This document shows, piece after piece, positions 9,132-47,147 of a stretch of DNA of 47,147 nucleotides. The notes beneath the pieces were generated by a model, which worked only from the letters and a program-made list of their open reading frames with translations, did no database searches and was not told where the DNA came from. Location of the stretch: the sequence record PZ787336.1. The stretch is one strand, 5' to 3'. The translations under genes and the position numbers were made by a program. Source of the DNA: a phage. Position 1 is the stretch's first letter; every line of letters begins with the position of its first letter.

Positions 9132-9323
9132 ATGGCAAACATGTCCTACTGTCGATTTCGTAATACAGAGCAAGACTTCAATGATTGTGTTGATGCAATT
9201 GGCAACATTGAGTCTATTGGTGACTTAAGTAATGCAGAACGCAAGTCTGCTGAGCGCCTGTACCATCTTGCTAATGAGTACGTCGCATATTACGAGCAAT
9301 TATTGGAAGAAAGTGGTGAATGA
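9132..9323 (+). CDS. hypothetical small acidic protein
   Basis: 63 aa ORF tightly packed between neighbours. Confidence 0.5.
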   Translation: MANMSYCRFRNTEQDFNDCVDAIGNIESIGDLSNAERKSAERLYHLANEYVAYYEQLLEESGE

Positions 9324-9324
9324 T

Positions 9325-10134
9325 ATGAAAACACTTAGCAAAATCTATTCAGACAAAGAAACGCGCAACGGAATCGCTGTTAACAAAACCTATCTCGTGC
9401 CAGTGGAGCAAATCTATCTGGAGCCGGGATACAACATCCGCGAAGCAGACGAGCAGCATGTGGAGTATTTCGCGCAGTGCTGGGAATCAGGTCAGCCATT
9501 ACCAGCATTAACAGTTATTCCTGATGAGAAGGGAATCCGCATTCTTGATGGTCAGCATCGCTATCTAGGCGCATTGCGTGCCATTGAGCGTGGCGCACCA
9601 ATTGTTCGTATTGAGTGCAAGGATTTCACAGGAGGCGAAGCAGATAAAATCGCCTTCATGGTGTCGTCCAGTCAGGGTAAGCAGCTTGACCCGTTTGAAC
9701 GCGCAAAGGCTTACACGCGACTGAAGGGTTTTGGCTGGACCAACGAGGAAATCGCCAAGAAGGTAGGGCGCTCAGTTTCTGACGTGCAGATGCACCTGTC
9801 ACTGGGTGATGTGCCAGCCGAAGTAAAAGCGCGAATCAGTGCAGGGCAAATCAGCTATGCAAATGCCGTAGCAGTAACTCGCGAACATGGCGATGATGCG
9901 GTTAAAGTTATCGACGAGGCAGTCGAAGAAGCGAAGGCGCAAGGCAAGGATAAGGTAACGGCGAAGGTGCTTAAGTCGAAAAAGATTAAGCCAGTAGACC
10001 GACTGATTGAGTTACTGAAGCCAGCTGACCACGTTATTCTTCCTGCTGGTCATGTAGTGGCAGAGAATGAGGAGTTTATCCAGATTCCTGTTGCTGATAT
10101 TCACGAGGTGATGGCAATTCTGGAGAAGATGTGA
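9325..10134 (+). CDS. ParB-like nuclease domain protein
   Basis: N-terminal ParB/Srx-like region with the GIRILDGQHRYLGA-type motif; start at ATG 9325 directly after the upstream stop. Confidence 0.7.
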   Translation: MKTLSKIYSDKETRNGIAVNKTYLVPVEQIYLEPGYNIREADEQHVEYFAQCWESGQPLPALTVIPDEKGIRILDGQHRYLGALRAIERGAPIVRIECKDFTGGEADKIAFMVSSSQGKQLDPFERAKAYTRLKGFGWTNEEIAKKVGRSVSDVQMHLSLGDVPAEVKARISAGQISYANAVAVTREHGDDAVKVIDEAVEEAKAQGKDKVTAKVLKSKKIKPVDRLIELLKPADHVILPAGHVVAENEEFIQIPVADIHEVMAILEKM

Positions 10135-10931
10135 TGATGGTCCACTATTACAATGAGTGGGACAAGGGCGCAGCGGCATGGCTGCGTGAATTAATTAACA
10201 ATAAACTAATTCCTTACGGATATGTCGATGAACGATCAATCACCGAAGTCACCCCTTCAGACCTGGAAGGATTTACACAGTGTCACTTCTTTGCCGGAAT
10301 CGGAGGGTGGCCCCTTGCACTCCAGCTGGCAGGAATACCAGAAAGCACTCGACTCTGGACAGGATCACCACCTTGCCAGCCGTTTAGCGTTGCCGGTAAG
10401 TCTCTCGGATTTGACGACGATCGACACCTTGCCCCAGCATTTCTCAGGCTCATCAGAGAGTGCAAGCCTGAATTGCTGTTTGGAGAGCAGGTTGCAGCAG
10501 CAATTGGGAAGCACTGGCTCGATTTTGTATTCCTTAACCTGGAAGACAAAGGCTACGCCTGCGGGGCGTCAGTATTGCCAGCTTGCAGCGTCGGCTCTCC
10601 ACAGGAAAGGAAAAGAATCATCTTTGGCGCGAGGATGGGCGACACCAACGGCGCGAGGATGGAAGGATTACGGGAATCTCAGCAAGTCATTTTACAGAAA
10701 GGACGGGAAATTCAGGAACGATACTCTTTATCGCCAGATGTGGCTTCATGTTTATGGGATTCATGGAAACCCAACCATGGAGCAGATAAGGAAACTAGAG
10801 TCATACCAGGCGGATTTTGCGAGGCAACTCATGGGGTATCCGCAAGAGTGGGACGATTGCGCGGTTATGGTAATGCCATAGTTCCACAAGTCGCAGCAGA
10901 ATTCATTAAAGCATTCATGAGGTCCGTTTAA
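10131..10931 (+). CDS. DNA cytosine-5 methyltransferase (orphan); reading frame in the middle part uncertain
   Basis: motifs FAGIGG (I), PPCQPFS (IV), SPQERKRIIF (VIII), GNAIVP (X) in this frame; RQLMGYPQEW (motif IX-like) lies in the overlapping frame 10222..10881. Confidence 0.75.
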   Translation: MMMVHYYNEWDKGAAAWLRELINNKLIPYGYVDERSITEVTPSDLEGFTQCHFFAGIGGWPLALQLAGIPESTRLWTGSPPCQPFSVAGKSLGFDDDRHLAPAFLRLIRECKPELLFGEQVAAAIGKHWLDFVFLNLEDKGYACGASVLPACSVGSPQERKRIIFGARMGDTNGARMEGLRESQQVILQKGREIQERYSLSPDVASCLWDSWKPNHGADKETRVIPGGFCEATHGVSARVGRLRGYGNAIVPQVAAEFIKAFMRSV

Positions 10932-14511: not shown

Positions 14512-14637
14512 TTAACTCTCCACGGTTAGTTTGTGGTCGAATTATAACACAGGGAGATATAGCACCATGAGGCGGTAGCCAGTGCAAACAATGGCGAATT
14601 GGTGAGTGCGTATAGCGTGAGAAAGTAAGTGATAGGG
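14512..14637 (-). CDS. hypothetical small hydrophobic protein (41 aa)
   Basis: AGGAGG RBS 5 nt upstream of the ATG; stop 2 nt before the protease-scaffold ATG. Confidence 0.3.
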
Positions 14638-14703
14638 ATTATATTCATGGGCTACCTCCTGATTAAATGATAGCAGCCCATGATGAACAAAAGATATACG
14701 GAG

Positions 14704-15558: not shown

Positions 15559-15817
15559 TTAGTACGTCCTCAGCAAGTTTGCGGAACATGATTTGCACTC
15601 TTGCCACTTTGCGCCACTCAGCTTCGGTGAGAATCACATCCTCCTGCTGCGGAATTCCCGACATTTCGCATGGCGGTAATGGCTCATACTCTTGCTTCTT
15701 GCGTTTGGCTTTTCCCATGCTGACCTCTTGCGCTGCGAAGAAGTAAATTAAACAGGTTGCTGACATTAACCTCCTGCTCATGCCATGAGTAACGCCACAG
15801 CTTCTTGTGGTGGTCAT
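15542..15817 (-). CDS. hypothetical protein (start uncertain; may begin at internal Met)
   Basis: ORF begins inside a 19-bp tandem duplication. Confidence 0.4.
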   Translation of the reverse strand: MTTTRSCGVTHGMSRRLMSATCLIYFFAAQEVSMGKAKRKKQEYEPLPPCEMSGIPQQEDVILTEAEWRKVARVQIMFRKLAEDVLNEMGY

Positions 15818-15842
15818 AGCTTCTTGTGGTGGTCATAGCTTC
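15799..15842. repeat. perfect 19-bp tandem direct repeat (agcttcttgtggtggtcat x2 plus partial third copy)
   Basis: two identical adjacent copies at 15799-15817 and 15818-15836 straddling a gene boundary. Confidence 0.6.
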
Positions 15843-16245
15843 GCGTCACATCACCGTTATGAAACATAATGCGGATGCGGCTTTTCACGATGCGATAATC
15901 AATGCCAGTGGTGGTACTGATTTCTTTCACTTCCGCGCCAGCGTTATCAAGCAAATGGCACTTAATAGCATCATCAATACCGGCTGCATCATCAGAGATG
16001 AAATATTTATACTGCCACTTGCCGCCGCGAATCACTGACTTCTCGCGACGAATGAATCCAAGAGCAAGCATCTCATGTAAGCGATGCGTTGTGGTGCTTG
16101 AATGCTTACCTCCGCAATGCTTCTCAATGTATGCGCGCGTTGCTCCGGGGTGATTCATAATCACGCGCATGATTTGTGATTTATAGTCCATAATCACGCT
16201 CCTCTGCTGCCTGATTGAAGTCGTCGGAAGTGTAGAGGTGTCCAC
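15814..16245 (-). CDS. hypothetical protein, possibly truncated by the tandem duplication
   Basis: 143 aa; stop codon lies in the second repeat copy. Confidence 0.45.
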   Translation of the reverse strand: MDTSTLPTTSIRQQRSVIMDYKSQIMRVIMNHPGATRAYIEKHCGGKHSSTTTHRLHEMLALGFIRREKSVIRGGKWQYKYFISDDAAGIDDAIKCHLLDNAGAEVKEISTTTGIDYRIVKSRIRIMFHNGDVTRSYDHHKKL

Positions 16246-16426
16246 CTCTTGTGTTCCATTTCTTCATTGCCGTGGATGCGCAGCAATACGAGTCAGTGCG
16301 GCAAAAACAATCTCCGCACTCAACGTGCAACCATTCGCCGTCATCAATAACACTTACGTCATCACAACCACAAAACGGGCATTCAAGTAATTTCTCATCG
16401 TTCATTAGTAGTGTCATATTGCTCAC
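16181..16426 (-). CDS. Lar-like restriction alleviation protein (zinc-ribbon)
   Basis: 81 aa with CPFCG...C..C pattern and C-terminal KKWNTR, as in Lar-family proteins. Confidence 0.5.
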   Translation of the reverse strand: MSNMTLLMNDEKLLECPFCGCDDVSVIDDGEWLHVECGDCFCRTDSYCCASTAMKKWNTRGGHLYTSDDFNQAAEERDYGL

Positions 16427-16933
16427 CTTTTGTATTCAAAAATTTCCCGTGAACCATCTTTATGAGCCTGTTCCTCTCCTCTTTTGCTTGTGTTATTGAC
16501 GAGAATCTACCTCCATAATAATGCTTGCCATTGGCTGTAATTTGAACCCTCCACCTTTCTCGCGAAGAGTCCCAAACAACATCCTTAACTCCGCTTGTAT
16601 TATTGTTTTTCACGCCTACATTCATAACATTTTGACCTCTTGTGACCAATCTTAGGTTGCTGATGCGATTATCTTTCTTGTTCCCATTTATGTAATCAAT
16701 CTCATATCCGTTTGGTATATCTCCATTGCAAACAATCCACGCCATTCTGTGTGCGTAAAACCTCCCGATGGGGAGTTGAATTCTCCAATACCCATGCGAT
16801 GTAATACCTCCAGCCACCTTCCCTTTCTTTGATTTTCTTGAGAAATATCAATCCATAGAAAGTTTCCTGTATTTTCATCATACTGGAGGAACTTTAAAAT
16901 GCTTTCCTGACTAATGTTGCTCATTTCAACCAT
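16395..16933 (-). CDS. HNH-AP2 homing endonuclease, apparent frameshift
   Basis: N-terminal part (LQYDENTGNFLW...) in ORF 16688..16933, HNH (GYEIDYINGNKKDNRISNLR) and AP2 parts in ORF 16395..16817; frames differ by one base at a short A-run near 16819. Confidence 0.65.
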
Positions 16934-17373: not shown

Positions 17374-17384
17374 TTCCACATCAC

Positions 17385-17448
17385 CTTTTCCGTTGTGGTA
17401 CAATCTACGTCAACAAGTATTGACTAAATGATGTAGAAACGTCAAGAT
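17385..17448. promoter_or_regulatory. divergent promoter region (plus TTGACT at 17420-17425; minus-strand TTGACG-TAGATT element at 17401-17413)
   Basis: contains caatctacgtcaa and gatgtagaaacgtcaa, both members of the repeated motif family. Confidence 0.4.
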
Positions 17449-17472: not shown

Positions 17473-17679
17473 ATGCCAAGACCACGACGCGAGCCGATGG
17501 ACATTATCACCAGCATTGTGGAGAAGCGACAACCGCTGACACTCCGTGATGTTCGCTACTTCGCCCGTTGCTATGTGGCGCTGGCTGATATGCCTAAGGA
17601 AGATATGTATGATTTGATTCGGGCCAACTTCAGTGTTGACGAGAATAATAGAGTGACAATGAAAGAGGATGAGAAATGA
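17473..17679 (+). CDS. hypothetical protein
   Basis: 68 aa ORF with GAAGGAG RBS. Confidence 0.45.
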   Translation: MPRPRREPMDIITSIVEKRQPLTLRDVRYFARCYVALADMPKEDMYDLIRANFSVDENNRVTMKEDEK

Positions 17680-18186
17680 GGCATAGGAGAGATGAGCCGA
17701 GTAGGGAGTTTATATTGAGTTACCTTTACTACAATCCACTAACTGGGGAATTTAAATGGCTAAAGACAAGGAATAGGATTGCAGAAAAGGGAGTGTGGCT
17801 GGCTACTTAAAGCCAGATGGATATGTGCAAATAATTCTTTGCGGTAGGGCTTTTCTTGCTCACAGATTGGCATGGATATGCATTCATGGCGCGCCAGCAA
17901 GTGAAATGATTGACCACATAATGGCATTCGCAATGACAACAGGGCGTGCAATTTAAGGGAGGCCAGCAAATTTGAGAATAGCCACAACAAAGCAATGAAC
18001 AAAAACAACACTAGCGGTATCAAGGGGGTTAACTGGAGTTCATCGCACAACAAGTGGCATGCAAGAGTTGGAGTAAATGGCAAAAGATTCACAGTTGGTT
18101 ACTTTTCCGACATAAGAGAAGCAGAAGCAAAAATAAAAGAATTCAGGAGAATGCATCACAATGAGTTCACAAATCACGGGCGATAA
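17676..18186 (+). CDS. HNH-AP2 homing endonuclease, two apparent frameshifts
   Basis: N-terminal YYNPLTGEFKW in frame 1, GYLKPDGYVQI...AHRLAW...IDHI in a second frame, AP2 domain (GIKGVNWSSSHNKWHARVGVNGKRFTVGYF) in ORF 17995..18186; shifts at aaaaggg (17785-17791) and ataatgg (17918-17924). Confidence 0.65.
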
Positions 18187-36131: not shown

Positions 36132-36395
36132 GTGTTCCTTGATAGCATTTTTAAGAGGATTTTTCATGGCAAGCCAATCCCTGTTGCCTTCGGATACCCG
36201 CCACGAAGCAATACATGGCTAACCATATACAGAAGACAGAGAACTGGAGAATGGATTTTTGAGTGGGATGATTTGTTTGCCGATGAGCGACCAGAAGATT
36301 ATCTATGGAATCTTAGTTATATGTATTTTTATAGCGGAATAGATGATGAAACAAAGAAACAAACAATTGAACGTCTTGGTGCGAGGATTTGGTAA
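36132..36395 (+). CDS. hypothetical protein (GTG start)
   Basis: 87 aa ORF; stop overlaps the helicase ATG (TAATG). Confidence 0.4.
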   Translation: MFLDSIFKRIFHGKPIPVAFGYPPRSNTWLTIYRRQRTGEWIFEWDDLFADERPEDYLWNLSYMYFYSGIDDETKKQTIERLGARIW

Positions 36396-38317
36396 TGCAT
36401 AAAATCGACAAAATGATTTCAGAGATTGATATTAATCTGCTGAAATCTTATCTGGATACTGGTGATATCGAGCCAAGACCCTATCAGTGGTTGATATATA
36501 AGTTAACTGGCGATGTGATTCGTCATTATGTTGGCCCAAGCTATGTAACAGCAAGTGTCGGTAGCGGAAAGTCACTGATGATTGCCATGATAGCAAAGCG
36601 TTTTCAGGAGATGGGCTATTCAGGGATGATTTTATCAAGACAGGGCGAAATAGTGGAGCAAGATGCGGAAGAGCTATGGTTGCTTGGTGTTAGAAACTCG
36701 CTATTCAGTGCTTCGTTGGGTAGGAAAAGTTCTACGTACCCAATAATCTGTGGTTCTGAGGGTACTGTTGTAAATGCTTTGTTTGATAAAAAAGATGAGC
36801 ATGGGAATGTTATTGCAAAAGGTGCGCTCTCTGACTTTTGCCCAAGATTCCTGCTGATCGATGAAAATCATATGGTTAATGACATTGATGTTGTTAATAA
36901 TGGTGATACGCAGTATGCAGTGATAATTAATGAGCTAATGAAAAGGTGTAAAGATAAGCATGGCCATGAGTTGAGAATAATAGGTTATACAGGCTCACCG
37001 TTTCGCGGAACTACATCAATAAAAGGCGCTTTCTGGAAGAAAGAGATTATCAACATAGACACCAAGTACATGGTTGAAAACGGTTTTCTTGTTCCAACAA
37101 TTTTTGGTCTTCGTGATGTTGATAGTCTGCATTATGACCTTTCGGATTTTCATGGTTCAGATGTTGATGGTACTCAGGACTTTACCGCCGAGCAGCTCAA
37201 GCAGATGCAGAAAGAAATTCTTGAGCAAGGTACGTTGACGCAGAAAATCATGCTCAAGGTTATGGAGTTGACTAAAAACAGAAACGGCGTACTGATTACA
37301 TGTGCTGGTAAAAAACATTGTCAGGAGGCGGCAAAATACCTACCCGAAGGAAGTTATTCAATAGTTACAGAAGATATGGGGTCAAAAGCCAGAAGGAAGG
37401 CTCTAAAAGATGCATACACCGGGCGTAAAAAATTCACATTCCAGATAGCCGCCCTTACCACTGGCGTAAATATACCGTTATGGGATACGAGCTGCATATT
37501 GCGAAAAATAATGTCGCTAACTCTCCTTGTCCAGCTTCTTGGTCGCGGAATGCGCCTACTGAAGAAAGAGCAAATTGATGCCGGGTATCATAAAGAAGAC
37601 CATCTGGTTCTTGATTTCTCTGGCACGATGTTTGAGCTTGGTCAGCTGTATGAAGACCCGATTCTGGAAGAGGCTGAAGCGCAACGTTCAAAACGCAGTG
37701 GCGAACAAGTTCCGTGTCATACATGTGGAACAATGAACAGCCCATATGCGCGTCGATGCATAGGGAAAGACCCGCTATCTCCAGATGGTCGCTGCGAAGA
37801 ATTTTTCAGTTACATCCGTTGCGGTTTTGATAAGCACGGAATCCGGATTTTTGATGATGGTTGCGGCACTAAAAACGACCCCACTGCGCGCTATTGCAGA
37901 CATTGCGATCACGTGTTGCGCGACCCTAATTCGGCACTGAATGAGCGTGCTTATACAGATAACGAGTGGGCTGATGTTATGGATTTCAAGGTTCAACTAA
38001 CGAAGGACGGAGAGGGGATTTTATATCGCTACTGGATTAACCGTTGTGATGGCAAAGAAGGCTGGGCTAATGAAGTTTTCTACCCTTATGGCGGCGCAAC
38101 TCACATGAAAAACATGTTCAAGGCAAAGGCGGTTTTTCCTCACCTTGATGATAAGTCAATGGCTTGGAAAATACTGAAATGCCAGAACGCCAAGCAATTC
38201 ATGATGTATGCGGGATTAATTAAAGCGCCAAAACGCATAACGCATCGAATTAATGATAAAGGCAGAGACATAATCCACCGCAAAGAATTTAAAGGAGAAC
38301 AAAGTGAAGCAGCTTGA
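36395..38317 (+). CDS. SF2 DEAD/DEAH-box-type helicase with Cys-rich C-terminal region
   Basis: Walker A ASVGSGKS, LLIDENH DExH box, LGRGMR motif VI; several CxxC pairs in the C-terminal third; the track ORF starts at 36389. Confidence 0.8.
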   Translation: MHKIDKMISEIDINLLKSYLDTGDIEPRPYQWLIYKLTGDVIRHYVGPSYVTASVGSGKSLMIAMIAKRFQEMGYSGMILSRQGEIVEQDAEELWLLGVRNSLFSASLGRKSSTYPIICGSEGTVVNALFDKKDEHGNVIAKGALSDFCPRFLLIDENHMVNDIDVVNNGDTQYAVIINELMKRCKDKHGHELRIIGYTGSPFRGTTSIKGAFWKKEIINIDTKYMVENGFLVPTIFGLRDVDSLHYDLSDFHGSDVDGTQDFTAEQLKQMQKEILEQGTLTQKIMLKVMELTKNRNGVLITCAGKKHCQEAAKYLPEGSYSIVTEDMGSKARRKALKDAYTGRKKFTFQIAALTTGVNIPLWDTSCILRKIMSLTLLVQLLGRGMRLLKKEQIDAGYHKEDHLVLDFSGTMFELGQLYEDPILEEAEAQRSKRSGEQVPCHTCGTMNSPYARRCIGKDPLSPDGRCEEFFSYIRCGFDKHGIRIFDDGCGTKNDPTARYCRHCDHVLRDPNSALNERAYTDNEWADVMDFKVQLTKDGEGILYRYWINRCDGKEGWANEVFYPYGGATHMKNMFKAKAVFPHLDDKSMAWKILKCQNAKQFMMYAGLIKAPKRITHRINDKGRDIIHRKEFKGEQSEAA

Positions 38318-38729
38318 TAGCGGCATATGGGTATTTGATAGCGGTTATCGTGGTGAGTGTCCTAAAGAGGAGACTGACCAGATGGGTTACGGAACATGGA
38401 TGCAACACCGCTTCCCTGATGTTCTGTGGTTTCATGTACCCAACGAAACTGGCACATCAAGCAGGGTGCAGTTTGTGCTGAAGCGCCAGAAGATGGGGGT
38501 TAAGGCTGGTATAGGCGACAATGTGATAATGACTCCGGGGGTAAATCACAGTTGTGGGATGATTGAAGCAAAGCGTCGCGATAAAAGCAAAAGCAGGGTG
38601 AGCAAGGAGCAATCGTCCGTGTTAACTGAGATGTGCAGGCTTGGTCATTATGCCGCCATCGCTTACGGTCTTGATGAACTAAAAAAAGCCACACTTTTCT
38701 ATTTTGGCTTGCCTTTCGATGTAGATTGA
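38304..38729 (+). CDS. VRR-NUC domain nuclease
   Basis: 141 aa with GIGDNVIMTPGV...GMIEAKRRD...SKEQ pattern consistent with the VRR-NUC fold; the 3' end runs into the promoter motif. Confidence 0.65.
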   Translation: MKQLDSGIWVFDSGYRGECPKEETDQMGYGTWMQHRFPDVLWFHVPNETGTSSRVQFVLKRQKMGVKAGIGDNVIMTPGVNHSCGMIEAKRRDKSKSRVSKEQSSVLTEMCRLGHYAAIAYGLDELKKATLFYFGLPFDVD

Positions 38730-38737
38730 TGTAGATT
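38709..38737 (+). promoter_or_regulatory. sigma70-like promoter with tandem GTAGATTGA / GTAGATTCA elements
   Basis: TTGCCT 38709-38714, N17, TAGATT 38732-38737; 24 nt upstream of the ATG at 38762. Confidence 0.45.
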
Positions 38738-38761
38738 CAACTGACAATAACAAGTGAGGTA

Positions 38762-39043
38762 ATGAAGATGAGTAACGAATTCAAAGGTACTAAAGGTGCG
38801 TGGAGAGTAGTGGTTGGTGATGACAATTCGCCTGATATTGTAGCTGATGGTGGAGTTGATATTGCCAGCACGCCAACATATAACGGGGATAAAGATGAGC
38901 AGTGGCACAATGCATACCTCATAGCCGCCGCCCCAGAACTCTTGAGTGCTTTGCAAGCATGTCTAGGATGGGTAAATAATGGTATTTCTCGTGACGCACA
39001 TAATCAAGCGATTACAGCAATCAACAAAGCGTTAGGCAAATAA
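38762..39043 (+). CDS. hypothetical protein, paralog of 20837..21088
   Basis: shared motifs EFKGTKGAW, IAAAPELLSALQ, AINKALG. Confidence 0.5.
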   Translation: MKMSNEFKGTKGAWRVVVGDDNSPDIVADGGVDIASTPTYNGDKDEQWHNAYLIAAAPELLSALQACLGWVNNGISRDAHNQAITAINKALGK

Positions 39044-39045
39044 CT

Positions 39046-39984
39046 ATGAAAGTCTACTTCAACAATGAACTCACAAACGAACAGTACCATGCCGACACAG
39101 AGCACATTAATGGTTCTGGATTATGGAATATACTTGACAGATGCCCAGCAGCATGGCGCTACAAAGACGAAGAAGATGAGCAATCAAAAGCTCTTATCTT
39201 CGGAACTGGAAGCCATACTGCACTACTTGAACCTGAGCGTTTCGATGCAGAATATGCGCGAATGCCAACAAAAGAAGATTTTGGTGATGACCTGCTTGTT
39301 ACAGTTAGTGACATGAACTCATGGGCGAAAGAGCGTGGCATTAAAGGACTATCAGGGAAGTCGAAAGCTGAGGTAATCAAAATTATTCAGGCGACTGGCG
39401 AACCAGTGAAAATTTACGATGTCATCCGTGAAGATGCTGAAAAAGCTGCTGCAGGAAAGCAGATGCTGGAAGGTAGTGATTATGACGCAATTCAGCAAAT
39501 GCGTGCTGTAATACACGCAAACAGCTACTACAGCAGCCTTCTTGCTGGCGCTTATGCTGAAGTGTCAATTCTCGGTGAACTTAACGGAGAAAAAGCAAAA
39601 GTTCGTTTTGACTGCCTGACAAAAGGTGGTGACATTATTGACTACAAAACGGCAGTGAGCGCCAAGCCTGAAGAGTTTTTCCGTCATGCTGCGCGACTTG
39701 GCTACTTTATGAAAATGGCTATGCAACACGATATGTTTGTTGCTGCATACGGTTATGCGCCACGCTCTGTTAATCTTCTCGTTCAGGAAAAGAAAGCACC
39801 ATTTATTCCTGCGTTAATTCGCTTGACTGAAGAGCAATTACGCATCGGTCGAATTCAGTTGCATGGCGCTATGGAAATTTACAAGGCGTGCAAAAAAGCC
39901 AATTCGTGGCCCGGTTATTCAATGGGTAATCCTGTCATAGAAATGGAAACGCCTGAATGGTTCAAAAAACAGTTTAATTTATAA
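39046..39984 (+). CDS. PD-(D/E)xK family exonuclease (RecE/YqaJ-like recombination nuclease)
   Basis: 312 aa with D...DIIDYKT-type nuclease motif; lies in a recombination module upstream of the ATPase and SSB genes. Confidence 0.6.
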   Translation: MKVYFNNELTNEQYHADTEHINGSGLWNILDRCPAAWRYKDEEDEQSKALIFGTGSHTALLEPERFDAEYARMPTKEDFGDDLLVTVSDMNSWAKERGIKGLSGKSKAEVIKIIQATGEPVKIYDVIREDAEKAAAGKQMLEGSDYDAIQQMRAVIHANSYYSSLLAGAYAEVSILGELNGEKAKVRFDCLTKGGDIIDYKTAVSAKPEEFFRHAARLGYFMKMAMQHDMFVAAYGYAPRSVNLLVQEKKAPFIPALIRLTEEQLRIGRIQLHGAMEIYKACKKANSWPGYSMGNPVIEMETPEWFKKQFNL

Positions 39985-39992
39985 TTAGTGAG

Positions 39993-41042
39993 GTGATGAA
40001 AATGGGTATTCTCAATATTAAACCAGCAGAGCGTTCAGGTTCTCGTGTAGTCATCGGTATTTCAGGCCAGTCTGGTAGCGGAAAAACATACAGCGCACTT
40101 AAGCTGGCTCGCGGGATGGTTGACTCACCAGAAGAAATCGGATTCCTTGATACTGAAAATGGTCGCGGTCGCCTGTACTCAAACATCCTTGATGGCAAAT
40201 TCCTGCACGCTGATATGTATGCTCCATTCAGCCCGGCCCGTTACCGTCAGGCCATTGAAGAGTTTCAGGCTGCCGGCGTTAAGGTTCTTGTTATTGATTC
40301 AGGTTCGCATGAATGGGAAGGTGAAGGCAGTTGCACGGAGATTGCTGAAAAGCCGCTGCTTAACGGTAAAAAGATGGCTGACTGGAAGCGCGCCAAAGCT
40401 GAACACAAGAAGTTCATGAATGCCATGCTACAAAGCAATATGCATATCATTGTCTGTCTTCGCGCTCGCCAGAAAACTGACTTCGCAAACCCGAAGGAAC
40501 CTGTATCACTTGGGTTACAGCCAGTGTGCGAGAAAGATTTCATGTTCGAGATGACCGTGAGCATGATGATGCACGATGGAGGAAAAATTCAGGAGTTCAC
40601 CAAATTACCAGAAGAGCTACGCCCCATCTTCTTTGAGTCTGGTCGTGAAAGCGTTCGTCATGGCTATATTGGAGAGGCTCATGGTCGAGGACTCATCAAA
40701 TGGGTGGACTCTGGTGTTAAAGTTGACGAAGAGTTTGAATCATGGCGCTCACGACTTCAGCTTTCAGCAGCAAAAGGAATGGAAGGACTGAAGGAAGAGG
40801 CGAAATCAATACCTGATAACCTGAAAGATAAGATTCGTGCAATATGGCCTTCTCTCGCTGCTTCTGCTGCTGAATATGATCGCATTGAGTCTTTTATCAA
40901 TGATGAGCAATTATCTCCTGTGGTAATAACTCCGCAGGATAATTTCGACCCTGCAAAACTGGCTAAACCGCAACCACAACAGCCAGAGCCACAGGAAGAA
41001 ACCAAAACCGAACATAAACCAACTCCAATTGAAGGATTTTAA
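39993..41042 (+). CDS. RecA-like / AAA ATPase (Sak4-like recombination ATPase candidate)
   Basis: Walker A GQSGSGKT and Walker B VLVIDSG; Pro/Gln-rich C-terminal tail. Confidence 0.6.
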   Translation: MMKMGILNIKPAERSGSRVVIGISGQSGSGKTYSALKLARGMVDSPEEIGFLDTENGRGRLYSNILDGKFLHADMYAPFSPARYRQAIEEFQAAGVKVLVIDSGSHEWEGEGSCTEIAEKPLLNGKKMADWKRAKAEHKKFMNAMLQSNMHIIVCLRARQKTDFANPKEPVSLGLQPVCEKDFMFEMTVSMMMHDGGKIQEFTKLPEELRPIFFESGRESVRHGYIGEAHGRGLIKWVDSGVKVDEEFESWRSRLQLSAAKGMEGLKEEAKSIPDNLKDKIRAIWPSLAASAAEYDRIESFINDEQLSPVVITPQDNFDPAKLAKPQPQQPEPQEETKTEHKPTPIEGF

Positions 41043-41045
41043 TAA

Positions 41046-41552
41046 ATGGCACGCGGCGTAAATAAAGTAATTATTGTCGGCACTCTCGGAAACGACCCTG
41101 AAGTTAAATATTCAGCATCAGGCTCTGCAATTGCCAACCTTTCTGTTGCAACATCTGAGCAGTGGAAAGATAAGCAGACAGGAGAAAAGAAAGAACAGAC
41201 CGAGTGGCATCGCGTGGTCATCTTCGGGAAACTTGCTGAGATTGCAGGCGAATACCTTCGCAAAGGTTCTCAGGTTTATATCGAAGGCCAGCTACGCACT
41301 CGTAAGTGGACTGACAGCAACGGCGTGGACAAATACACCACTGAGATTGTCATTCCGCAGATGGGTGGTGTTATGCAGATGCTTGGTGGTAGACGTGATG
41401 ATTCTGATCAGCAACAACCACGCCAGCAATCAGGACAGCAACCTCAAGGTGGATGGGGGACAAATCCGCAACAACAACAGCCACAAAAACAACAAAGCCC
41501 ACAAGGAGGCAATGAGCCGCCGATTGACTTCGACGACGACATTCCGTTCTGA
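41046..41552 (+). CDS. ssb: single-stranded DNA-binding protein
   Basis: OB-fold N-terminal region, Gln/Pro/Gly-rich linker and acidic C-terminal tail DFDDDIPF. Confidence 0.9.
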
Positions 41553-41561
41553 TGATAAAAC

Positions 41562-41586
41562 AAACCCCGCCTGGGCGGGGTTTTAT
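41562..41586. terminator. bidirectional rho-independent terminator
   Basis: aaaCCCCGCCtgGGCGGGGtttt between convergent ssb and tailspike genes. Confidence 0.7.
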
Positions 41587-41620
41587 ACCTTGACTACTGA
41601 TCTAACCGTACTAGTATTAC

Positions 41621-43888
41621 TCACTTAGACATAACAGCTAATGCTTCCTGCATACGCTTAATAGTACGCCGCATCAACGCAGCCTCTAATATCAGTACTT
41701 CCTCGTAACGAATACCGTAGCGGGAACCTGCTGGTGTAATCAGTTTACGAGAGCCATTGGCATCTTCCTCGTATACATCATCCCAACTGTCGAAGCACAG
41801 GAAGCCATAGCGATGTGCATCTATACCGTGACGTTCGAATGCCTCCTTAGCTCGCTGAGCGATGATGCCGAAGTGCCATCTAGCTGAGTCTGCACCCTTC
41901 TCCTCAATTCGGTACAAGTACTGAAATTGCACAAAGTCAACTTCAGACCAAGCATCCAGTAAAGCATCTGAGATAATAAGAGGCTCTGTTTTATCCCTAG
42001 CATCTGAGACAACAGTGAATGCTGATTGAGTAAAACCGCCAGACCATGCTCGACTTGCGGAACCTAATGCGTATGTATCAGTACTATCTGGGGTCATTGC
42101 ATTAGAACCTAACTGCAAATAACCTGTGCTACTGGTGGGAAGACGCACGTTACCGTTGGTGAGTGATACTGCCCGAGAAGTACCATCAGAAGTAAATAGG
42201 CGAACTTGAGAAGAAGTACCCCCACCTACAGCTAATGACACAGCACCATCCCCAAGCATTCTGTACTTATCAGCCGAGGTAAGAACGCCTGACGGAAGTG
42301 ACATGGACTTAATCCGCCATTCGAACCTACCGGACATACTGCCTATGTACTGTCCTAATGCAGGAGCGTGCACTACGTTGCTATTACTGGTGCCGTCAAT
42401 AGTAACTGCACCTTCAATAGTACCAGCAGCACCGAGAAGGTCGTTTCTCCTTCCCGGATGCTTTACCTCTACGAAGTTACGGGTAGAACCTGATTCGAAA
42501 GTAATAACACCTGTAGCACTGTAGCTAGGAAATACAGACGCATAGTTGTTATTAGCTGTATCTATAAAGCGCGCAATTGTAGCAGTTTGAGCTTGCCCTA
42601 AAGAGTTAGTACCATCACATCCTGACATAAGCACATTGCTTATTACGTTATCAGAGCCTTCTACTGTAACACCGTGAGCCTGACTAGCATCAGAGATTGA
42701 GAAATCTACAAGCACATCTGAGATTAAGTTGGCACTACCTTTGCCTGCAACAACCGCTGCATATTTAGGATTATTAGCCACTACCCCATTGATAAGGTTG
42801 TTAGAGGGAGCTATTGACCCTTCTGTACCGTTGTAAGTTACATGCTGGCAGTCTGCCCCTATAACATTGCTGACTATGTTATAACTGGCTGTACCTTTCA
42901 GTTCTACAGCCCCGAACTGAGGGTAGTCCTTAGCAATGACGTTATTTATGAGGGAGTTAACCGAGGAATCAGCAAGTATGCATCCAGCCGCCTTATTAGC
43001 AGCATAGCCGGAGTAGCTACCTCGAATGCCTTTAATCATAAGCCCATCAGAGGGTGCATCATTAGGGTATGTGATTAAACTGAAACCAATGCCCTTAACG
43101 TTTGAGAAATTAACATCACTTATAGTAACATCACTACCACCAGCAAGAGATACCTGCTGCCCTTGAGTGGTATCGGTCGCCTTATTACTTTCTACCGTAA
43201 TATTACTTAAGCGACCTGAGCGTAGATTGTTAAATACTAAGTAGTTACCTGTACTTGAACGGTGACTTAGTACACCACTGCCTCTACCGTCTAAGTTACA
43301 GTAATTACTATTAATACCAGAACTAGAGAATACACCGTCTGATGCTACGACAGCTTTTTGAGAATTTAGTGAAGCAGCTATATTCTCCGTACTATCCGTT
43401 ACACCATCCCCTTTAGCACCCCAGCCTCGAACATCACCCTCATCACGCCATCTTGCCATCTGCAATTCAGGGTAACTGGACGCACCATCCGGGTCTGAAA
43501 TCTGGCTGCGCAGGGCTGCATCACCAACACTCAACCATTTCCCAATTCCAACACCGCCAGCGGATGCAGGAGCTGAACCAGAAGCGACTGTTTTAGGGAA
43601 TTCACCATCCCAGCGGTAATATTCTCCAGTAGCTTCATAGCGCAAAACCTGATTCGGTAACGTCAGCGTCGCTCCATCTTCAAAACTGTCCATTGTGATG
43701 TAGCCATAATTACGGATTGCTTCTTCTGCGGTGTATTGGAATCCAGCAATTGTCCAGCGGCGTACACCGAAGCGATCGGTATAGTAATGTGCATCAGATG
43801 TCACTACCTCGTCGATCTTACCGGCATTAAATTTCAGGTCGCGCGGGTCTTCTGACGGAATTGGTTTATTGGTTGGTGTGGTAGCCAT
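41621..43888 (-). CDS. tailspike / tail fibre protein with C-terminal intramolecular chaperone (peptidase S74-like) domain
   Basis: 755 aa; Gly/Ser/Asn-rich repetitive beta-helix-like middle region; C-terminal ...DARDKTEPL...FDSWDDVYEE... resembles the autoproteolytic chaperone domain of endosialidase-type tailspikes. Confidence 0.8.
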   Translation of the reverse strand: MATTPTNKPIPSEDPRDLKFNAGKIDEVVTSDAHYYTDRFGVRRWTIAGFQYTAEEAIRNYGYITMDSFEDGATLTLPNQVLRYEATGEYYRWDGEFPKTVASGSAPASAGGVGIGKWLSVGDAALRSQISDPDGASSYPELQMARWRDEGDVRGWGAKGDGVTDSTENIAASLNSQKAVVASDGVFSSSGINSNYCNLDGRGSGVLSHRSSTGNYLVFNNLRSGRLSNITVESNKATDTTQGQQVSLAGGSDVTISDVNFSNVKGIGFSLITYPNDAPSDGLMIKGIRGSYSGYAANKAAGCILADSSVNSLINNVIAKDYPQFGAVELKGTASYNIVSNVIGADCQHVTYNGTEGSIAPSNNLINGVVANNPKYAAVVAGKGSANLISDVLVDFSISDASQAHGVTVEGSDNVISNVLMSGCDGTNSLGQAQTATIARFIDTANNNYASVFPSYSATGVITFESGSTRNFVEVKHPGRRNDLLGAAGTIEGAVTIDGTSNSNVVHAPALGQYIGSMSGRFEWRIKSMSLPSGVLTSADKYRMLGDGAVSLAVGGGTSSQVRLFTSDGTSRAVSLTNGNVRLPTSSTGYLQLGSNAMTPDSTDTYALGSASRAWSGGFTQSAFTVVSDARDKTEPLIISDALLDAWSEVDFVQFQYLYRIEEKGADSARWHFGIIAQRAKEAFERHGIDAHRYGFLCFDSWDDVYEEDANGSRKLITPAGSRYGIRYEEVLILEAALMRRTIKRMQEALAVMSK

Positions 43889-43927
43889 TATAATAAATGC
43901 TCCTTTGTGAATTTGATGTATATTGTA

Positions 43928-47147
<3,220 letters not shown>

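What the first reader, a model, noticed from the sequence alone, without database searches (positions are those of the whole stretch)
16181..16426. Lar-like restriction-alleviation protein in the late-region small-gene operon
The 81-aa ORF has the CPFCG zinc-ribbon signature and a C-terminal KKWNTR, as in Lar-family restriction alleviation proteins. Together with the orphan methyltransferase this suggests the phage carries more than one anti-restriction function.
Basis: partly seen in the sequence, partly recalled or inferred. Interest (0 to 1): 0.45.

Follow-up and report, generated by a model that had tools for sequence, protein, structure and literature searches.

The report
Lar-family zinc-ribbon gene, hypervariable core
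The ORF is a real, conserved 78-aa phage gene of the known Lar (restriction-alleviation) zinc-ribbon family, an ordinary and already-annotated kind of gene whose anti-restriction role here is only inferred; its one unusual trait is that its middle third differs almost completely between otherwise ~90%-identical phages.

Summary
Window 16181..16417 (-) encodes a 78-aa protein. The protein has CPFCGC...CGDC and KKWNTR.

It passes Pfam PF14354 Lar_restr_allev (39.5 bits; cutoff 28.6) and PHROG 599. It aligns without gaps to the prototype E. coli Rac Lar/RalR (32% over 53 aa, E 1e-10). It falls just below NCBIfam's Lar subfamily cutoff (34.2 vs 39.6) and is not a RalR equivalog.

The window is a Skatevirus/Swiduovirus-like siphovirus. 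Orthologues at this locus are already annotated "Lar-like" in several relatives. The anti-restriction function is inferred only. Relative Bas78, which carries a Lar-like gene, is still restricted by EcoKI (EOP ~0.02-0.03) and EcoCFT_I (~3e-4).

"Late-region operon" is true of position only: a conserved sigma70-like promoter heads the cluster. The orphan C5-methyltransferase is real (10131..10931).

New here: the segment between CPFCG and WNTR exists in at least 12-14 unrelated-looking classes (about 34% aa identity), inside conserved termini and ~90%-identical flanks. Some cores are mosaics of two classes. Selection is purifying within a class. HNH homing endonucleases flank the gene.

Verdict: new member of a known kind, low to moderate interest.

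The parts
16181..16417 (-). Lar-family protein CDS, 78 aa (ATG 16417, TAA 16181-16183)
   Evidence: ORF list and sequence. Identical 78-aa CDS annotated in ZCEC08. Pfam PF14354 39.5 bits. PHROG 599. BLASTP to Rac Lar/RalR E 1e-10.
16424..16429 (-).
   Evidence: Read directly from the sequence.
16247..16396 (-). Lar_restr_allev zinc-ribbon domain (residues 8-57 of the 78-aa protein). Zn ligands C13, C16, C34, C37; W54-N-T-R57.
   Evidence: Pfam alignment span. C13, C16 and C37 are invariant in both alignments; C34 is invariant in A1 and present in every sequence listed, although MAFFT splits its column in A2. AF2 model: hairpin 21-25/30-34 and helix 47-53, pLDDT 77-85.
16259..16369 (-). Hypervariable core (residues 17-53, between CPFC and WNTR)
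   Evidence: Mean pairwise nt identity 0.37-0.5 here versus 0.85-0.95 downstream. 12-14 core classes, mean aa identity 0.33-0.34. blastn homology to swi2 stops at 16270.
16184..16246 (-). Conserved C-terminal tail GGHLYTSDDFNQAAEERDYGL (predicted helix 64-75, low confidence)
   Evidence: Tail identity 0.76-0.86 among relatives. The structure model gives a helix there. The prototype RalR lacks this tail.
15814..16191 (-). Downstream MarR-like winged-helix gene, start overlapping the Lar stop by 11 nt. Its 3' end is frameshifted in the window by a 19-bp tandem duplication.
   Evidence: PHROG 1687 E 1.8e-44 and weak Pfam MarR_2. The gene is 489 nt in ZCEC08 and swi2. Duplication shown.
16395..16933 (-). 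Upstream HNH homing endonuclease, overlapping the Lar start by 23 nt. A 1-nt deletion near 16846 splits it into two ORFs in the window.
   Evidence: Pfam HNH_3 E 6.3e-19 and PHROG 99. Intact 531-nt gene in ZCEC08. Indel shown.
17416..17445 (-). Sigma70-like promoter TTGACG-18 nt-AATACT at the head of the small-gene cluster (65-aa gene, 64-aa gene, HNH, Lar, wHTH, ...)
   Evidence: Consensus scan. The -35 and -10 hexamers are invariant in 6 phages while the spacer differs in ASO78B and STGO-35-1. The scan as a whole is not enriched over shuffles, so the conservation pattern is the evidence.
10131..10931 (+). Orphan C5-cytosine DNA methyltransferase (context named in the finding; not part of the Lar gene cluster)
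   Evidence: Pfam PF00145 E 1e-21. PHROG 363 E 3e-75. Motifs I, IV, VI, VIII and X read in the translation.

Best explanation
The gene encodes a 78-aa, single-domain, Elf1-like zinc-ribbon protein of the Lar family. It is carried at a fixed position, just upstream of a winged-helix gene, by every sampled member of a Skatevirus/Swiduovirus-like group of enterobacterial siphoviruses.

Most likely mechanism (inferred by homology, not shown here):
- Like the prototype Lar of the Rac prophage, it binds the methyltransferase core of host type I (EcoKI-like, family IA) restriction-modification enzymes.
- This shifts them toward de novo methylation of unmodified phage DNA.
- A larger fraction of infecting and replicating genomes then escapes cleavage, and progeny become modified. 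This is a partial alleviation, not a block.
- It would be made by host RNA polymerase from the conserved sigma70-like promoter at about 17416-17445.

The surface between the two zinc knuckles and the following helix (residues 17-53) is swapped among at least 12-14 allele classes by recombination within conserved termini. I read this as tracking of polymorphic host targets.
For: Shown:
- Family membership by Pfam, PHROG and direct alignment to Rac Lar, with the four Cys and W-N-x-R conserved.
- 100% retention of the gene in 32 loci anchored on the neighbouring gene.
- Purifying selection within allele classes.
- Conserved promoter hexamers with a variable spacer.
- No depletion of type I sites in the genome: EcoKI 5 versus 7.1 expected, AACN6GTRC 6 versus 10, GAGN6RTAYG 4 versus 4. 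The phage is therefore exposed to such systems.
- Core hypervariability within a conserved frame.

From the literature:
- Ral sensitivity maps to the HsdM N-terminal domain and is limited to type IA (PMC12707154).
Against: - No experiment exists on this protein or any close relative.
- Identity to the only characterised Lar is 32% over 53 aa, in a fold where little beyond the metal ligands is conserved.
- The score is below NCBIfam's Lar subfamily cutoff.
- Bas78, which carries a Lar-like gene, still plates at 0.02-0.03 on EcoKI with one site and at about 3e-4 on EcoCFT_I with three sites. The BASEL authors call the group 'markedly sensitive to RM systems'.
- The gene lies between the lysis and head modules, not in the replication/early module.
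- The prototype has also been reported as a non-specific DNase toxin (PMC4041452).
- A Lar homologue in Bas63 showed host-dependent fitness that did not fit type I systems (PMC11482910).
Confidence: 0.45

Rival explanations
1. It is a Lar-fold zinc-ribbon that counters a different host defence (type IV restriction, another nuclease-based system, or an abortive-infection or exclusion system) or serves another host-takeover role. 'Restriction alleviation' would then be only a family label.
For: - The PhageMaP preprint found the Bas63 Lar homologue less needed in DH10B than in strains lacking intact type I systems, and suggested type IV systems.
- Relatives with the gene remain sensitive to type I RM.
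- At least 12-14 core classes suggest targets more diverse than the conserved HsdM N-terminal domain.
- The downstream partner has a weak Ren-like exclusion-protein hit (PHROG 142, E 1.5e-5).
Against: - No positive evidence for any specific alternative target.
- No PADLOC hit.
- The only experimentally defined activity in the family concerns type I systems.
Confidence: 0.25
2. It is a DNA- or protein-binding accessory factor working with the translationally coupled MarR-like winged-helix protein, or with the phage's own C5-methyltransferase. Its role would be gene regulation or control of self-methylation, not action on host enzymes.
For: - An 11-nt start/stop overlap with the wHTH gene is conserved in more than 30 phages, and the pair also occurs in Klebsiella phages.
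- The closest solved fold is Elf1, a nucleic-acid/polymerase-associated zinc ribbon.
- An orphan methyltransferase is present in the genome.
Against: - In Bas78 and 64795_sal3 an HNH gene, not the wHTH gene, follows Lar, so the pairing is not obligatory.
- A regulator's interaction surface would not be expected to be replaced by unrelated cassettes while its partner stays about 93-98% identical.
- In the window itself the wHTH gene is frameshifted while Lar is intact.
Confidence: 0.12
3. It is a small DNase like RalR, the Rac homologue reported as a non-specific endonuclease toxin, used to damage host DNA.
For: RalR, the same protein as Lar, was reported to cleave methylated and unmethylated DNA (PMC4041452). 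Homology to RalR is significant.
Against: - The score against the RalR equivalog model is 27.5 versus a cutoff of 113.
- No antitoxin-like RNA or any Rfam match was found.
- An enzyme's active surface would not tolerate the observed cassette replacement.
Confidence: 0.06
4. The core hypervariability has nothing to do with host targets. It is a by-product of homing-endonuclease activity, which repeatedly breaks and repairs this spot and drags in foreign flanking sequence.
For: - HNH genes abut Lar upstream (window, ZCEC08) or downstream (Bas78, 64795_sal3).
- The Lar N-terminus changes where HNH is upstream (MSAPHMPMMND... becomes MTLLMND...), and the C-tail changes where HNH is downstream.
- The small-gene cluster has other variable patches.
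Against: - Most loci with differing cores have no adjacent HNH gene.
- Every core class keeps the zinc ligands and an open frame and is under purifying selection. Function is therefore maintained in all classes, which points to selection on the variants rather than repair scars.
- This rival concerns only the origin of the diversity and is compatible with any of the functional readings.
Confidence: 0.2

Closest known systems
Lar / RalR of the E. coli K-12 Rac prophage (b1348; Pfam PF14354, TIGR03655)
   Same: - Same family by profile and by direct alignment: 32% identity over 53 aa without gaps, CPFCGC, second CxxC, W-N-x-R.
- Similar size and the same single zinc-ribbon architecture.
- Phage-borne.
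   Different: - Below the TIGR03655 cutoff and far below the RalR equivalog cutoff.
- Carries an extra conserved 21-aa C-terminal tail that RalR lacks.
- Sits in a virulent siphovirus between the lysis and head modules, next to a wHTH gene. Rac Lar sits next to recET in a lambdoid early-left operon with an antisense RalA sRNA.
- Function here is untested.
Annotated 'Lar-like restriction alleviation proteins' (PHROG 599) at the same locus in relatives (swi2 gp62, DS8, Sa179lw gp83, STGO-35-1, Bas78, Bas81, ASO78B)
   Same: Positional orthologues: same flanking genes, same conserved N-terminus and C-tail, same overlap with the downstream gene.
   Different: Only 41-65% identical overall, because the core belongs to other classes.
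Ral of phage lambda (Pfam PF11058)
   Same: The functional analogue usually cited together with Lar: a small early protein that alleviates type IA restriction by enhancing modification.
   Different: No detectable sequence similarity (BLASTP E 0.29) and a different Pfam family.
Elf1 transcription elongation factor zinc ribbon (PDB 6ir9 chain M)
   Different: A eukaryotic/archaeal RNA polymerase II-associated factor. The similarity is of fold only and implies no shared function.

Membership tests
Pfam PF14354 Lar_restr_allev | Whole-protein score at or above the curated gathering score (28.6 bits) | tested here: met
   39.5 bits, E 6.7e-10, profile positions 1-57 of 58. Four other allele classes also pass at 36.5-37.6 bits.
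Pfam PF14354 Lar_restr_allev | Four-cysteine zinc ribbon (CxxC ... CxxC) followed by a helix and a W-N-x-R motif, in a small (~55-85 aa) single-domain protein | tested here: met
   C13/C16 and C34/C37 plus W54-N-T-R57 are present. They align with Rac Lar and are conserved in relatives. The first knuckle may read CPFC, CPCC, CPLC or CDNC in relatives. The model gives a hairpin plus helix.
NCBIfam TIGR03655 anti_R_Lar (Lar family restriction alleviation protein, subfamily) | Score at or above the curated cutoff (39.6 bits) | tested here: not met
   34.2 bits, E 2.4e-08: significant, but below the cutoff.
NCBIfam NF007260 RalR (type I toxin-antitoxin endodeoxyribonuclease toxin, equivalog) | Score at or above 113 bits, and a cognate antisense RalA sRNA | tested here: not met
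   27.5 bits. No Rfam family matched anywhere in the window.
Functional Lar/Ral-type restriction alleviation | Alleviates type IA (EcoKI) restriction of unmodified DNA and enhances its modification | not testable with these tools
   Only indirect evidence: Bas78, which carries a Lar-like gene of another core class, plates at 0.02-0.03 on EcoKI (1 site) and about 3e-4 on EcoCFT_I (3 sites). This neither shows nor excludes a partial alleviation.
Functional Lar/Ral-type restriction alleviation | Expressed early, before or during exposure of unmodified DNA | tested here: inconclusive
   A conserved sigma70-like promoter heads the cluster, but the cluster lies between the lysis and head genes and no expression data are available.
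Pfam PF11058 Ral (lambda antirestriction protein) | Sequence similarity to lambda Ral | tested here: not met
   BLASTP E 0.29. Lambda Ral hits PF11058 only and the window protein hits PF14354 only.

The most novel reading that the evidence does not exclude
The Lar-like gene of this phage group is a specificity cassette. A constant frame (N-terminus, zinc ligands, WNTR, C-tail) carries an exchangeable ~37-residue surface that exists in a dozen or more unrelated-looking classes, and in half-core mosaics of them. These are shuffled by recombination, possibly helped by the flanking homing endonucleases. Each class would be matched to a different variant of a polymorphic host defence, such as type I methyltransferases or something not yet identified. 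That would make it a small, tractable model of an anti-defence 'allele library' in virulent phages.
Probability: 0.25. Interest if true: 0.6.

Novelty: new member of a known kind. Interest (0 to 1): 0.3.

Why it matters
As a gene call it matters little. It confirms a routine annotation, and it fills one in for the closest relative, ZCEC08, where the identical protein is labelled hypothetical.

If the protein does alleviate restriction, this phage combines an orphan C5-methyltransferase (protection against some type II enzymes) with a modulator of type I systems. That is relevant to host range and to the choice of phages for therapy or biocontrol.

The more useful lead is the allele-class structure of the core. 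The Lar family has had one characterised member since 1995 and has no solved structure. A set of natural variants in an otherwise near-identical genetic background would allow a direct test of what the family binds and what determines its specificity.

Tried and rejected
- Sequence search of the PDB: no relative with a solved structure; best E 0.5, generic zinc ribbons.
- Similarity to lambda Ral: none.
- PADLOC defence models: no hit for Lar.
- Rfam and tRNA scans of the whole window, looking for a RalA-like antitoxin RNA or anything else: nothing.
- Literature search for PF14354 / 'Lar family': swamped by the LAR phosphatase family, with no functional study beyond King & Murray 1995 and the RalR paper. 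The King & Murray paper is not held, so its content is cited through reviews.
- Classic intrinsic terminator between the small-gene cluster and the head genes: none found. There is only a conserved hairpin without a T-run, plus an extended -10, so I could not decide whether Lar is co-transcribed with the head genes.
- Fusion of Lar to HNH in 64795_sal3, as its annotation suggests: rejected. The Lar frame ends at a stop and the annotated HNH start is in another frame.
- Type I site avoidance as indirect evidence: none seen.
- The word-indexed homologue search returned only 25 close relatives. The exhaustive search gave 267 representatives at E <= 1e-3, many with two tandem Lar domains, but these carry no names or genomic context.

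Full report
**1. The observation**

The ORF finder lists an 81-aa ORF at 16181..16426 on the minus strand, starting with GTG. The sequence contains LECPFCGC, ECGDC and AMKKWNTR.
- Read on the minus strand, the bases before the first ATG are AAGGTGAGCAAT-ATG. The GTG is therefore part of a Shine-Dalgarno sequence (16424-16429) placed 6 nt before ATG 16417.
- The product is most likely 78 aa (MTLLMNDEK...GL). The identical protein is annotated with this start in the closest relative.
- KKWNTR ends the zinc-ribbon domain. A further 21 residues follow it.
- The stop overlaps the start of the next gene by 11 nt (ATGGACTATAA). The start overlaps the end of the upstream HNH gene by 23 nt.

**2. Is it a gene?**

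Yes.
- tblastn finds a relative in 202 phage records.
- I fetched 32 loci from IMG/VR through the neighbouring winged-helix gene, that is, independently of Lar. Every one has a Lar-like ORF ending at the same junction. The two that my first motif filter missed simply read CDNC instead of CPFC.
- Against ZCEC08 the gene has 2 synonymous and 0 non-synonymous differences.
- Between STGO-35-1 and Sa179lw, which share a core class, dN is 0.09 and dS 0.81.

**3. What the window is**

The window is essentially a complete ~47-kb siphovirus genome.
- The closest record is Escherichia phage vB_Eco_ZCEC08 (about 96% nt identity). Other matches are Salmonella, Escherichia and Shigella phages scattered over Skatevirus, Swiduovirus, Buchananvirus, Caminolopintovirus, Macdonaldcampvirus and Saltrevirus. 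The BASEL authors treat this cluster collectively as Skatevirus-like (PMC11990801).
- Lar lies in a run of small minus-strand genes: a 65-aa gene, a 64-aa gene, HNH, Lar, a MarR-like wHTH, then several small ORFs.
- That run lies between the lysis cassette and the head genes: a gp7-like protein from about 14509, then decoration protein and major capsid.

**4. Family assignment**

- Pfam PF14354 Lar_restr_allev: 39.5 bits against a gathering score of 28.6, covering the whole profile.
- PHROG 599 'Lar-like restriction alleviation protein': E 6.8e-16.
- I fetched the prototype from E. coli K-12 (ralR/lar, b1348, in the Rac prophage next to recT). The alignment is gapless over 53 residues at 32% identity, E 1e-10, with CPFCGC, the second CxxC and WN(T/K)R in register.
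- NCBIfam is stricter. The Lar subfamily model TIGR03655 gives 34.2 bits, below its cutoff of 39.6. The RalR equivalog model gives 27.5 against 113.
- Lambda Ral, the functional analogue, is unrelated in sequence.
- No relative has a solved structure.
- An AlphaFold model from 26 sequences is of moderate confidence: mean pLDDT 68, and 77-85 across residues 11-50. It shows a zinc-ribbon hairpin (21-25, 30-34), a helix (47-53) and a low-confidence C-terminal helix (64-75).
- The best viral predicted-structure matches are proteins named Lar-family.
- An exhaustive HMMER search finds 267 cluster representatives at E <= 1e-3, many with two tandem domains.
- Conclusion: the protein is a member of the broad Lar zinc-ribbon family. 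It is not an equivalog of the characterised protein.

**5. Function: what is shown and what is inferred**

- The only experimentally defined activity in the family is that of Rac Lar. [quoted passage not shown] - The same Rac protein was later reported as a non-specific DNase toxin (PMC4041452).
- A Lar homologue in phage Bas63 showed host-dependent fitness that its authors could not ascribe to type I systems (PMC11482910).
- For the present phage group there is indirect phenotypic information. Bas78 carries an annotated Lar-like gene at this locus. It plates at 0.019-0.029 on EcoKI with a single site and at 2-6e-4 on EcoCFT_I with three sites. The group is described as markedly sensitive to RM systems.
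- This rules out strong, general immunity to type I restriction. It does not rule out a Ral-like partial alleviation, and no deletion mutant exists for comparison.
- The window genome is not depleted in type I sites: EcoKI 5 versus 7.1 expected, AACN6GTRC 6 versus 10, GAGN6RTAYG 4 versus 4.
- I therefore give the restriction-alleviation mechanism about 0.45 and list three functional rivals.

**6. 'Late-region operon'**

The label describes position only.
- The cluster begins at a divergent intergenic region. It contains TTGACG-18 nt-AATACT on the Lar strand (17416-17445).
- The two hexamers are invariant in six phages, whereas the spacer differs in ASO78B and STGO-35-1. That is the pattern expected of a real sigma70 promoter.
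- A TTGAC box on the other strand overlaps it, giving a face-to-face arrangement.
- Between the last small gene and the head genes there is no classic terminator. There is a conserved hairpin and an invariant extended -10, TGTTATAAT at 14541-14549.
- Timing is therefore open. Host-RNAP transcription from the start of infection is plausible.

**7. The methyltransferase**

- ORF 10131..10931 (+) is a C5-cytosine methyltransferase with motifs I (FFAGIGGW), IV (SPPCQPFS), VI, VIII (QERKR) and X (GNAIVP).
- It directly follows a ParB-like gene and has no nuclease partner.
- This part of the finding is correct.

**8.

Among relatives, the N-terminus (M-x-x-P-H-M-P-M-M-N-D-E-G-L-L-E-CPFCG) and the tail (WNTR-GGHLYTADDFNQAAEERDYGL) are conserved. 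The 37 residues in between are not.

| Sample | Sequences | Core classes (>=60% identity, single linkage) | N-terminus identity | Core identity | Tail identity |
|---|---|---|---|---|---|
| Database proteins plus phage records | 36 | 14 | 0.74 | 0.33 | 0.76 |
| Loci anchored on the neighbouring wHTH, plus the window | 31 | 12 | 0.77 | 0.34 | 0.86 |

- In the anchored sample, each locus's neighbouring wHTH gene is 92-98% identical to the window's, except one partial match.
- At the nucleotide level, mean pairwise identity falls to 0.37-0.5 across about 16270-16375 and is 0.85-0.95 from there through the next gene.
- blastn homology between the window and swi2 stops at 16270 and resumes at 16919, beyond the HNH insertion.
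- The same core occurs with different termini (P0004, P0005, Bas78).
- The same terminus occurs with different cores (window versus P0004).
- Half-core mosaics exist. P0016 combines the class-1 first half with the class-3 second half. P0022, and the pair L022/P0023, behave likewise.
- Flanks that are ~90% identical cannot have accumulated such divergence by drift in the same time. The cores must have been exchanged from an old, maintained pool of alleles, each of which is under purifying selection.
- The window's class has eight cysteines. It is rare: ZCEC08, locus L030, and three metagenomic proteins.
- HNH homing endonucleases abut the gene upstream in the window and ZCEC08, where the Lar N-terminus is remodelled. 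They abut it downstream in Bas78 and 64795_sal3, where the tail is remodelled. Homing-associated gene conversion is therefore a plausible vehicle for the exchange.
- Other patches of the small-gene cluster are also variable, so the region as a whole is mosaic. What is special is an intact reading frame with constant ends and a replaced middle.

**9. Verdict**

- The family assignment is right and is already made in databases for positional orthologues.
- The function is a reasonable but untested inference.
- The 'late' label is unsupported.
- It is a new member of a known kind.
- The allele-class structure of the core is the only part that goes beyond routine annotation. It is the basis of the novel reading, given probability about 0.25.

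Noticed in passing
window 16395-16933 (-), and 17676-18186 (+): Both HNH/AP2 homing-endonuclease genes flanking the divergent promoter region are broken in the window relative to ZCEC08. Single-base deletions at about 16846, about 17788 (in a T run) and about 17919 split them into 2 and 3 ORFs. This is either real decay of the homing genes or assembly error.
   Followed up: partly
window 15805-15842 (-): An exact 19-bp tandem duplication (GAAGCTATGACCACCACAA x2) is absent from ZCEC08. It frameshifts the 3' end of the MarR-like wHTH gene, giving 125 aa instead of 162, and creates the overlapping ORFs that begin MTTTRS.... None is expected by chance.
   Followed up: partly
window 14526-14648 (-): A 40-aa hydrophobic ORF (MNIIPITYFLTLYALTNSPLFALATASWCYISLCYNSTTN) with a strong AGGAGG Shine-Dalgarno sequence lies in the 'intergenic' gap before the head genes and is not annotated in the relatives examined. 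Seven of 10 variable alignment columns among 5 phages fall on third codon positions. The SD and start codon sit inside a conserved hairpin (ATGGGCT...AGCCCAT).
   Followed up: partly
window 14541-14549 (-): An invariant extended -10 element, TGTTATAAT, lies about 30 nt upstream of the gp7-like head gene. It is conserved in all five phages aligned and may be a separate promoter for the head module.
   Followed up: no
window 36370-46547: All five EcoKI sites (AACN6GTGC) lie in the last 10.2 kb of the window and none in the first 36 kb. The total count (5) is close to expectation (7.1). This is a post hoc observation and its significance is unclear.
   Followed up: no
window 17375-17445: The divergent control region has TTGAC boxes on both strands, arranged so that each promoter's -35 overlaps the other's -10 (face-to-face promoters). 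The region is highly conserved across relatives, and the ASO78B record annotates the opposite-strand promoter.
   Followed up: partly
window 15814-16191 (-): The wHTH protein downstream of Lar has, besides its MarR-like N-terminal half, a weak hit of its C-terminal half to PHROG 142 'Ren-like exclusion protein' (E 1.5e-5). The Lar-wHTH pair also recurs in Klebsiella phages.
   Followed up: no
window 9232-10931 (+): A ParB-like gene (PHROG 1033) and the C5-methyltransferase form a plus-strand pair, overlapping by 4 nt, inserted between the minus-strand tail and head modules.
   Followed up: partly
proteins P0032, P0035, P0036, P0040 and others: Many distant Lar-family representatives contain two to five tandem Lar zinc-ribbon repeats, or a Lar domain fused to much longer proteins (up to 1236 aa). 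The domain is therefore used as a module well beyond the small stand-alone proteins.
   Followed up: no
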